Positions 53,087 to 53,108 of a stretch of 64,000 bases of DNA are shown piece after piece. Position 1 is the stretch's first letter. Each line of letters starts with the position of its first letter. Source of the DNA: Escherichia phage BEU5. Where the stretch lies: sequence record OM632664.1. One strand, 5' to 3'. The translations under genes and the position numbers were made by a program. Under the pieces are notes generated by a model. It was not told the origin of the DNA and did no database searches. It saw nothing but the letters and a program-made list of their open reading frames with translations.

Positions 53087-53108
53087 AAGCTGCTCCGCAG
53101 CTTTTGGT
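53087..53108 (+). promoter_or_regulatory. hairpin promoter candidate (N4 vRNAP early-promoter type) upstream of RNAP II genes
   Basis: AAGCTGC-TCC-GCAGCTT (7-bp stem, 3-nt loop) followed by TTGGTA; G at +11 from loop centre. Confidence 0.5.

What the first reader, a model, noticed from the sequence alone, without database searches (positions are those of the whole stretch)
53087..53108. Hairpin promoter candidate 3 directly upstream of the RNAP II subunit genes
The loop and stem length are identical to candidate 2 and the downstream TTGG is the same. This places the middle-phase polymerase genes under direct virion-RNAP control.
Basis: partly seen in the sequence, partly recalled or inferred. 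Interest (0 to 1): 0.5.

Follow-up and report, generated by a model that had tools for sequence, protein, structure and literature searches.

The report
Known N4 early promoter P3 hairpin

Summary
The window is a circularly permuted genome of an N4 isolate: 100% identical to phage BEU13 and 98.5% to coliphage N4 (window position = N4 position + 48541).

Positions 53087-53103 form a perfect 7-bp stem with a 3-nt loop (AAGCTGC-TCC-GCAGCTT), followed by TTGG. This corresponds to N4 nt 4546-4567 and lies in the 74-nt gap between gp14 and gp15 (RNAP1).

A motif derived only from the published promoters P1 and P2 (GCTYCGCNNCTTWTGG) hits the window exactly three times. The hits are P1, P2 and this site, all on the + strand, where 0 are expected by chance.

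Every published determinant of recognition by the virion RNA polymerase (vRNAP) is present:
- template -12A, -11G, -10G and -8G;
- the G:C loop-closing pair;
- the A4 spacer;
- +1C, giving a predicted start at G 53106.

The hairpin is conserved 44-49 nt upstream of RNAP1 across Enquatrovirinae, with compensatory stem changes. It does not resemble the strong intrinsic terminators of the same region. One of those terminators (55221-55246) closes a P3-gp15-gp16 unit.

Published work records three mapped vRNAP start sites (P1-P3) in the leftmost 10% of N4, and describes gp15/gp16 as early genes transcribed by vRNAP. Verdict: observation confirmed, interpretation supported, already known. I could not read a text that gives the P3 sequence, so the identification as P3 rests on elimination.

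The parts
53087..53103 (+). P3 promoter inverted repeat, AAGCTGC-TCC-GCAGCTT. The functional hairpin forms on the template (-) strand as AAGCTGC-GGA-GCAGCTT. Transcription runs rightward on the + strand.
   Evidence: Perfect 7-bp stem with 3-nt loop. The DNA fold of the template strand is -6.7 kcal/mol, z = -3.8. The sequence is identical in N4 EF056009 at 4546-4562.
53092..53098 (+). GC-rich heptamer GCTCCGC centred on -11 (position 53095). On the template strand it supplies -12A, -11G, -10G, -9C and -8G, and the -13:-9 loop-closing pair.
   Evidence: The determinants are listed in PMC4496689. These columns are invariant in 15 Enquatrovirinae sites.
53102..53105 (+). TTTT, which is A4 on the template strand at -4 to -1. 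This is the uncontacted 'molecular ruler' between -8 and the start site. The first two T also form the base of the 7-bp stem.
   Evidence: PMC4496689 reports four As with no base contacts, a start 8 nt downstream of -8, and melting of the 2 basal pairs of a 7-bp stem by the polymerase.
53106..53106 (+). Predicted transcription start (+1 G in the RNA, C on the template strand), 11 nt after the loop centre. The RNA would begin pppGG.
   Evidence: The register is the same as in the published P2 oligonucleotide (CC AAAA GAAGC GGA GCTTC, PMC13492108). GG is invariant in all 15 aligned sites. The start is inferred, not mapped here.
53106..53143 (+). Predicted 38-nt leader of the gp15 mRNA, with the Shine-Dalgarno sequence GGAG at 53132-53135.
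   Evidence: Sequence. The leader start GGTWATTAA and the segment GGAGAATAxGCGATG are conserved in orthologues.
53144..53953 (+). gp15, the RNAP1 subunit of N4 RNAPII (269 aa).
   Evidence: The ORF is. It is annotated as RNAP1 in N4 at 4603-5412 and is 100% identical to RNAP1 of N4-group phages.
53965..55215 (+). gp16, the RNAP2 subunit of N4 RNAPII. The ORF runs from the first ATG at 53965 (416 aa). The N4 annotation starts at the position equivalent to 54001 (404 aa).
   Evidence: Pfam RNA_pol PF00940 matches with E = 3.7e-14.
55221..55246 (+). Strong intrinsic terminator closing the P3-gp15-gp16 unit: an 11-bp stem, a UUCG loop and a U-rich tail.
   Evidence: Terminator scan. The RNA fold is -18.9 kcal/mol, z = -4.5.
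49098..49118 (+). Published early promoter P2, AAGAAGC-TCC-GCTTCTT-TTGG, with +1 at 49117.
   Evidence: It is the reverse complement of the P2 oligonucleotide core CCAAAAGAAGCGGAGCTTC in PMC13492108. Sequence.
48631..48649 (+). Published early promoter P1, GTTGC-TTC-GCAAC-TTATGG, with +1 at 48648.
   Evidence: The native 80-nt P1 template printed in PMC13434306 reads as the reverse complement of the window sequence around 48637, read by eye against (not aligned base by base). The P1 motif and hairpin are located.
12911..23431 (-). Gene for the virion RNA polymerase (gp50, about 3500 aa), the enzyme that reads the hairpin.
   Evidence: A 3506-aa ORF. It matches PDB N4 vRNAP chains over their full length at 7659 bits, including the promoter-complex entries 3C2P and 3Q0A.

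Best explanation
The feature is early promoter P3 of coliphage N4, present unchanged in this N4 isolate.

Proposed mechanism:
1. [quoted passage not shown]
2. E. coli SSB melts the non-template hairpin but leaves the unusually stable template-strand hairpin intact. That hairpin has a 5'-GGA-3' loop with a sheared G:A pair and a G:C closing pair.
3. The injected virion RNA polymerase binds the hairpin through -11G, -10G/-9C and -8G.
4. The polymerase uses the uncontacted A4 tract as a ruler and starts RNA at the template C that lies 8 nt beyond -8. On the + strand this is G 53106.
5. The transcript has a 38-nt leader and encodes gp15 and gp16, the two subunits of RNAPII. It ends at the strong terminator at 55221-55246.

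This gives the genes for the middle-phase polymerase their own vRNAP start, downstream of the terminators that limit P1 and P2 transcripts.

What is shown here: the sequence, the structure, its uniqueness, its conservation and its context. What is taken from the literature: the recognition rules, the extrusion mechanism, and the early status of gp15/16. What is inferred: that this exact site is the published P3, and that +1 is 53106.
For: 1. Identity of the genome. The window is 100% identical to phage BEU13 and 98.5% to N4. The hairpin and everything through the gp15 ATG are identical to N4 4546-4605.

2. Uniqueness. The motif GCTYCGCNNCTTWTGG, derivable from P1 and P2 alone, has 3 exact hits, all on the + strand, against 0.00 expected. 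Two of them are the published P1 (native template in PMC13434306) and P2 (oligonucleotide in PMC13492108). The third is this site. A relaxed scan using only the contact bases and a stem of at least 4 bp adds no other plausible site in the early region.

3. Recognition determinants. All those listed in PMC4496689 are present: -11 purine, -10G, -8G, +1C, -12A, the G:C closing pair, a 5-7-bp stem and the A4 spacer.

4. Position. [quoted passage not shown] This site is at 6.5% of the genome.

5. Gene class. gp15/gp16 are described as early genes transcribed by vRNAP.

6. Conservation. An orthologous hairpin lies 44-49 nt upstream of RNAP1 in Klebsiella phi1_146050, Jgk1, PhAPEC7, ECBP1 and G7C. 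The loop, the closing pairs and GG are invariant. There are two compensatory stem changes: -15:-7 T:A to A:T, and -16:-6 C:G to G:C. Across 15 sites, 90.5% of cells are paired, the covariation score is 0.465 against 0.130 in shuffles (0 of 500 as high), and pairing collapses when the register is slid. The 74-nt spacer is about 80% conserved in 60 phage records.

7. Independent prediction. The KP8 paper predicted the orthologous site as a vRNAP promoter upstream of the RNAP1 gene (PMC6950046).

8. Enzyme. The window encodes a vRNAP that matches PDB N4 vRNAP chains, including promoter-complex entries, over their full length.

9. Transcription unit. A strong terminator follows gp16, and no sigma-70-like site lies on the + strand upstream of gp15.
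Against: No 5'-end data exist for this isolate.

I could not read any text that prints the P3 sequence or its coordinates. Haynes & Rothman-Denes 1985, Glucksmann 1992, Dai 1998, Davydova 2007, Gleghorn 2008 and Willis 2002 are not held. The equation with P3 therefore rests on elimination plus my recollection.

One recent paper speaks of three promoters in its introduction and of 'four early promoters (P1-P4)' in its discussion, so the published count is not perfectly consistent.

The covariation set was partly selected by a filter requiring a stem of at least 4 bp, which inflates pairing at the inner pairs. The P3 orthologues themselves were found without any stem filter.

The hairpin is not found within 500 nt upstream of RNAP1 in five other Schitoviridae lineages.
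Confidence: 0.93

Rival explanations
1. The hairpin is an RNA-level intrinsic terminator or attenuator ending the gp8-gp14 message. As RNA it forms a 7-bp stem followed by UUUU, and it sits 18 nt after the gp14 stop codon. On this reading it is not a promoter.
For: The position right after a stop codon and the stem followed by T4 are seen. The consensus vRNAP promoter inevitably looks like a weak terminator on the RNA, because the A4 ruler becomes U4.
Against: The terminator scan does not call it.

The RNA fold is only -8.6 kcal/mol, z = -0.96. The real terminators of the same region fold at -15 to -19 kcal/mol (z about -4.5), with 9-11-bp stems, UUCG loops and long U tails.

This reading does not explain the invariant loop TCC, the invariant GC...GC, or the invariant GG at a fixed distance across 15 sites. 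It also does not explain the exact match to the P1/P2 determinants.
Confidence: 0.03
2. The site is a promoter, but for a different polymerase. It would be either an N4 RNAPII middle promoter or a host sigma-70 promoter, and the hairpin would be incidental.
For: RNAPII middle transcripts overlap across the left half of the genome, and its minimal promoter is AT-rich (-7 to +2). The spacer downstream of the hairpin is AT-rich.
Against: No sigma-70-like site lies on the + strand between the gp14 stop and gp15. RNAPII cannot be the first source of its own subunits. The conserved elements are exactly the vRNAP contact bases.
Confidence: 0.02
3. It is a chance inverted repeat with no function.
For: The window contains 112 perfect hairpins with a stem of at least 5 bp and a 3-nt loop, so short hairpins as such are common.
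Against: The exact 14-specified-base motif match has 0.00 expected occurrences. It occurs only at the left end and on the transcribed strand. It is conserved with compensatory changes across genera.
Confidence: 0.01

Closest known systems
Coliphage N4 early promoter P3 (vRNAP initiation site; Haynes & Rothman-Denes 1985, as summarised in PMC4496689)
   Same: The sequence is identical to N4 nt 4546-4567. It has the same genomic position (6.5% from the left end, upstream of ORF15) and the same orientation, and it is the only third site in the genome that fits the published description.
   Different: Nothing detectable differs. The window comes from a different isolate (BEU13) with 3 substitutions in the surrounding 120 nt, none of them in the hairpin, the spacer or the leader. 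No held text printing the P3 sequence could be read to confirm it letter by letter.
N4 early promoters P2 and P1 (structurally characterised vRNAP hairpin promoters; PDB 3C2P, 3Q0A and others)
   Same: With P2: a 7-bp stem, template loop GGA, an A4 ruler and a CC start. With P1: the GC-loop-GC core, the -8G/+1C register and a GG start.
   Different: The variable stem positions differ: CT/AG in P3, AA/TT in P2 and TT/AA in P1. P1 has a 5-bp stem, loop GAA and spacer TTAT. P3 gives the most stable predicted template hairpin: -6.7 kcal/mol against -5.3 and -3.7. P3 lies 4 kb further into the genome and serves gp15/16 rather than gp1/gp2.
Predicted promoter 'P4' of Klebsiella phage KP8 (AAGCAGCTCCGCTGCTTGTGGG, upstream of the RNAP1 gene; PMC6950046)
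   Same: It is the orthologous position, upstream of the gp15 homologue. It has the same loop, closing pairs, stem length and GG start.
   Different: There is a compensatory A:T swap at -15:-7, and the spacer is TTGT instead of TTTT. It is a prediction only.
Early hairpin promoters of Pseudomonas phage LUZ7 (mapped by ONT-cappable-seq; PMC9163698)
   Same: They are hairpin promoters read by a virion RNAP, with a 3-nt loop and a G start.
   Different: The stem is at least 4 bp, the TSS lies 13-14 nt from the hairpin centre instead of 11, and nine early TSSs were found. LUZ7 belongs to a different subfamily, and no N4-type hairpin was found upstream of RNAP1 in the non-Enquatrovirinae loci I examined.

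Membership tests
N4 vRNAP hairpin (early) promoters | Inverted repeat able to form a 5-7-bp stem with a 3-nt loop, with a GC-rich heptamer centred at -11 | tested here: met
   There is a perfect 7-bp stem, a 3-nt loop and the heptamer GCTCCGC at 53092-53098. The fold z-score is -3.8. The definition is from PMC4496689.
N4 vRNAP hairpin (early) promoters | Template-strand contact bases: -11 purine, -10G and -8G | tested here: met
   The template strand reads 5'-CCAAAA GCTGC GGA GCAGC-3'. This gives -8G, -10G and -11G (with the register taken from the P2 oligonucleotide).
N4 vRNAP hairpin (early) promoters | Loop bases and closing pair needed for extrusion and stability: -12A, -10G and the G:C loop-closing pair | tested here: met
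   The template loop is 5'-GGA-3', closed by C(-9):G(-13).
N4 vRNAP hairpin (early) promoters | +1C on the template strand, 8 nt downstream of -8, separated by an A-rich ruler | tested here: met
   TTTT at 53102-53105 is followed by GG at 53106-53107 on the coding strand. GG is invariant in 15 sites.
N4 vRNAP hairpin (early) promoters | Located at the left, first-injected end of the genome and oriented with the early genes | tested here: met
   N4 coordinate 4552 of 70153 is 6.5% of the genome, on the + strand like gp1-gp16. The literature places the promoters in the leftmost 10%, or about 8 kb.
N4 vRNAP hairpin (early) promoters | Stem identity is free provided pairing is kept, so compensatory variation is expected | tested here: met
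   Orthologues show -15:-7 T:A to A:T and -16:-6 C:G to G:C. Across the set, 90.5% of cells are paired and 0 of 500 shuffles reach the observed covariation score (with an ascertainment caveat for the non-orthologous sites).
N4 vRNAP hairpin (early) promoters | Cognate enzyme present | tested here: met
   A 3506-aa ORF matches PDB N4 vRNAP chains over their full length.
N4 vRNAP hairpin (early) promoters | Rifampicin-resistant initiation by vRNAP at this base, in vivo and on single-stranded DNA in vitro | not testable with these tools
   Held reviews report this for P1-P3 collectively, but the P3 sequence is not printed in any held text. No transcript data are available for this isolate.
N4 vRNAP hairpin (early) promoters | Dependence on DNA gyrase (supercoil-driven extrusion) and on E. 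coli SSB | not testable with these tools
   This is known from the literature only.
Rho-independent (intrinsic) terminators | Stable GC-rich RNA stem-loop immediately followed by a U-rich tail (at least 5 U in 8) | tested here: not met
   The scan does not call it. It has 4 U, two of them inside the stem. The RNA fold is -8.6 kcal/mol, z = -0.96, against -15 to -19 for neighbouring terminators.

The most novel reading that the evidence does not exclude
The P3 hairpin may have a second role at the RNA level. On transcripts reading through from P1/P2 via gp8-gp14, the same sequence (a 7-bp stem plus U4) could act as a weak terminator, pause site or processing site. That would insulate the RNAPII operon, so its dosage would be set mainly by P3. 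More generally, every vRNAP promoter would be a built-in weak terminator for upstream transcription, because the A4 'ruler' becomes a U-tract. Nothing here tests this. The weak RNA fold argues that any such effect is small.
Probability: 0.06. Interest if true: 0.3.

Novelty: already known. Interest (0 to 1): 0.08.

Why it matters
The finding matters little as a discovery. N4 vRNAP hairpin promoters are a textbook example of promoter recognition through DNA secondary structure. P1-P3 were mapped decades ago, and gp15/gp16 are established early genes.

The practical value is for annotation. None of the 60 GenBank phage records that carry this conserved spacer shows a regulatory feature under the match; only CDS names are listed. 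The simple motif GCTYCGC-N7-GG with a paired stem pinpoints the promoter and its orthologues across Enquatrovirinae.

The result also shows that the first-stage reader can recover a real, structure-based promoter from raw sequence.

Tried and rejected
1. Literature confirmation of the exact P3 sequence. The primary papers are not held. Full-text sequence searches found P1 and P2 oligonucleotides and the KP8 table, but no printed N4 P3. Further keyword searches added nothing.

2. The search for related loci with the single gp15 protein returned only 3 loci. I replaced it with a tblastn of the phage collection, ten fetched regions and a DNA-pattern scan of IMG/VR. About half of the 22 pattern hits were unrelated sequences and were discarded.

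3. Terminator reading: rejected.

4. Sigma-70 promoter reading: no site found.

5. Known RNA family: Rfam gave only a sub-threshold snoRNA chance hit on the opposite strand inside gp15.

6. A fourth promoter, 'P4' (mentioned). The relaxed scan found only poor candidates. One is at 49821 on the + strand, with an A:U closing pair, loop ACC and G:U pairs, inside a coding region. The other is at 30262 on the - strand, in the late region. No convincing fourth site exists in the non-redundant sequence.

7. More distant Schitoviridae (Achromobacter, Erwinia, Pseudomonas Zuri, Burkholderia, Stenotrophomonas phages). No N4-type hairpin lies within 500 nt upstream of RNAP1, and the gene there abuts its upstream neighbour. 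The P3 arrangement is therefore specific to Enquatrovirinae, or those polymerases read a different motif.

Full report
**What the window is.** A megablast of window 52000-56000 gives 100% identity to Escherichia phage BEU13 (OM632665, positions 58870-62870) and 98.5% identity to coliphage N4 (EF056009, 3459-7459). Window coordinates therefore equal N4 coordinates plus 48541. The physical ends of the N4 record meet at window 48541|48542, so the window is a circularly permuted assembly of an N4 isolate. The N4 annotation places gp14 at the window equivalent of 52689-53069, RNAP1 (gp15) at 53144-53953, and RNAP2 (gp16) at 54001-55215. Pfam confirms a T7-type RNA_pol domain in gp16. The 3506-aa ORF at 12911-23431 on the - strand matches PDB N4 virion RNA polymerase chains over their full length, including the promoter-complex entries 3C2P and 3Q0A.

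**The observation.** Positions 53087-53108 read AAGCTGC TCC GCAGCTT TTGG T. This is a perfect 7-bp stem around a 3-nt loop, then TTGG. It lies in the 74-nt gap between the gp14 stop codon (53067-53069) and the gp15 ATG (53144).

Short hairpins as such are common. The window has 112 perfect hairpins with a stem of at least 5 bp and a 3-nt loop. Only three have the GC-TYC-GC core followed by TWTGG, and all three are on the + strand, at loop centres 48637, 49106 and 53095. The motif GCTYCGCNNCTTWTGG, which can be written from the two published promoters alone, has three exact matches against 0.00 expected in shuffles. With up to two mismatches there are four matches against 0.81 expected. As single-stranded DNA, the template strand folds into the hairpin at -6.7 kcal/mol (z = -3.8). 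This is more stable than the equivalent P2 (-5.3) and P1 (-3.7) hairpins.

**What it is.** Two of the three sites are published promoters.
- The native 80-nt 'P1' run-off template printed in the 2026 Nat Commun paper reads as the reverse complement of the window sequence around 48637; I compared them by eye, not base by base.
- The 'P2' hairpin oligonucleotide core CCAAAAGAAGCGGAGCTTC in the 2026 J Bacteriol paper is the reverse complement of 49100-49118.

[quoted passage not shown] According to the review, -17 to +1 is conserved among the three sites, with a GC-rich heptamer centred at -11 flanked by inverted repeats. The polymerase specifically recognises template -11A/G, -10G, -8G and +1C. 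The G:C loop-closing pair and the loop 3'A and 5'G are needed for extrusion and stability. The four As before the start are an uncontacted ruler, so transcription begins 8 nt downstream of -8.

Written on the template strand, the candidate is 5'-CC AAAA GCTGC GGA GCAGC TT-3'. This gives -12A, -11G, -10G, -9C, -8G, an A4 tract and +1C. Every determinant is met. The predicted start is G 53106 on the coding strand, giving an RNA that begins GG, as at P2.

The site is at N4 coordinate 4552, which is 6.5% of the genome. It is the only further site in the whole non-redundant genome that fits the published description. I conclude that it is P3.

I could not read a text that prints the P3 sequence. 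The primary papers are not held, and sequence-string searches of the library returned only P1, P2 and a related phage's table. This last step is therefore an inference by elimination, supported by my recollection that the three promoters have stems of 5-7 bp.

**Comparative evidence.** gp15 homologues are present in 466 phage records. I fetched the upstream regions of ten of them and scanned IMG/VR with a pattern that contains no stem requirement.

In every Enquatrovirinae genome examined, a hairpin with the same loop (TCC), the same closing GC...GC and a GG at the same distance lies 44-49 nt upstream of the RNAP1 start codon. The genomes are the N4 group, Klebsiella phi1_146050 (KP8-like), Jgk1, PhAPEC7, ECBP1, G7C and several uncultivated genomes.

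The stems differ in a compensatory way. Position -15:-7 is T:A in N4 and A:T in the Klebsiella clade. Position -16:-6 is C:G in N4 and G:C in G7C.

An alignment of 15 distinct P1-, P2- and P3-type sites has the columns G-14, C-13, T-12, C-10, G-9, C-8, G+1 and G+2 invariant. On the 7-pair structure:
- 90.5% of cells are paired;
- four pairs have double changes;
- the covariation score is 0.465 against 0.130 in shuffles (0 of 500 as high);
- pairing falls to 19-47% when the register is slid.

One caveat applies. The non-orthologous sites in that set were picked with a stem filter of at least 4 bp, which favours pairing at the inner pairs. The P3 orthologues were not.

The whole 74-nt spacer is conserved at about 80% identity in 60 phage records, none of which shows a regulatory feature under the match. 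The KP8 genome paper independently predicted the orthologous site as a vRNAP promoter upstream of the RNAP1 gene.

In five other Schitoviridae lineages I found no N4-type hairpin within 500 nt upstream of RNAP1, and the gene there abuts its upstream neighbour. Phages of Achromobacter, Erwinia, Pseudomonas (Zuri), Burkholderia and Stenotrophomonas were examined. The arrangement therefore characterises the N4 subfamily.

**Context and mechanism.** The early region contains strong intrinsic terminators at these positions:
- 49034-49053, after gp1 and about 50 nt before P2;
- 49620-49641, after gp2;
- 51063-51088;
- 55221-55246, directly after gp16 (11-bp stem, UUCG loop, -18.9 kcal/mol).

P3, gp15, gp16 and the terminator at 55221 therefore form a compact unit. 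No terminator-like site lies between 51088 and P3, so some read-through into gp15 is possible. Even so, two strong terminators separate P1/P2 from the polymerase genes, which explains why they have a dedicated start.

The mechanism I adopt is the published one:
1. Gyrase-driven supercoiling of the first-injected DNA extrudes the cruciform.
2. E. coli SSB removes the non-template hairpin and spares the template one.
3. vRNAP binds the hairpin through -11G (stacking), -10G/-9C and -8G (major groove).
4. vRNAP melts the two basal pairs of a 7-bp stem and starts at +1C.

The papers held also state directly that vRNAP transcribes gp15 and gp16 as early genes, and that their products, together with gp1 and gp2, carry out middle transcription.

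**Rivals.**
- Terminator for the gp14 message. The position after a stop codon and the stem-plus-U4 suggest it. However, the scan does not call it. Its RNA fold is weak (-8.6 kcal/mol, z = -0.96) compared with the real terminators. A terminator would not need an invariant loop or a GG at a fixed distance.
- Sigma-70 or RNAPII promoter. No sigma-70-like site is present, and RNAPII cannot be the first source of its own subunits.
- Known RNA family. Rfam has nothing here.
- Chance. This is excluded by the motif statistics and the conservation.

A residual possibility, which I rate at about 6%, is that the sequence also acts weakly at the RNA level on read-through transcripts.

**Verdict.** The hairpin is real, is at the stated coordinates, and is almost certainly N4 early promoter P3. 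The finding is already known, so interest is low. The only practical point is that public genome records do not annotate it.

Noticed in passing
window 48541|48542: The right and left ends of the N4 GenBank record meet here, so the window is a circularly permuted assembly, and the physical left end (the first-injected end) is at 48542. The N4 record carries no second copy of the terminal repeat. In virion DNA the 390-440-bp direct terminal repeat (PMC3715699) would duplicate P1 (N4 nt 94) at the right end. [quoted passage not shown]
   Followed up: partly
window 30254-30270, - strand: This is the only other GCTCCGC heptamer in the window. It could form an imperfect hairpin, TGTAGC-TCC-GCTGTA (3 Watson-Crick pairs, 2 G:T pairs and 1 A:T pair), with a G at +1 but no T-rich spacer. 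It lies in the late region. About 4 heptamers are expected by chance, so it is probably fortuitous.
   Followed up: partly
window 49034-49053 and 49098-49118: A strong intrinsic terminator after gp1 lies only about 50 nt upstream of promoter P2. Strong terminators also follow gp2 (49620-49641) and lie at 51063-51088. The early region is thus cut into short units, while gp8-gp14 have no hairpin promoter of their own.
   Followed up: partly
window 53965 vs 54001: The gp16/RNAP2 ORF opens at an ATG at 53965 (416 aa), but the N4 annotation starts at the equivalent of 54001 (404 aa, the size quoted in the literature). I did not check which start has the better ribosome-binding site.
   Followed up: no
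L009 (G7C) 1615-2196; LR999871 (Jura): Relatives carry insertions between or near the two RNAPII subunit genes. G7C has an HNH homing endonuclease between RNAP1 and RNAP2. PhAPEC7, ECBP1 and the Klebsiella phage have small extra ORFs there. Jura has an HNH endonuclease in the region. The P3 unit is therefore a hotspot for insertions, yet the promoter is retained.
   Followed up: no
window 53106-53114 and orthologues: The first nine transcribed bases, GGTWATTAA, are conserved in all P3 orthologues. P1- and P2-type sites instead start GGAC or GGAT. This could simply reflect orthology, or it could be an initially transcribed sequence preference.
   Followed up: no
window 48572-48583: There is a poly-C tract close to the genome's left end. 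The window reads CACCCCCCCCGGTC where N4 reads CACCCCCCCCCTGTC. This homopolymer-length and adjacent-base difference lies within 40 nt of the end, and is either strain variation or a sequencing artefact.
   Followed up: no
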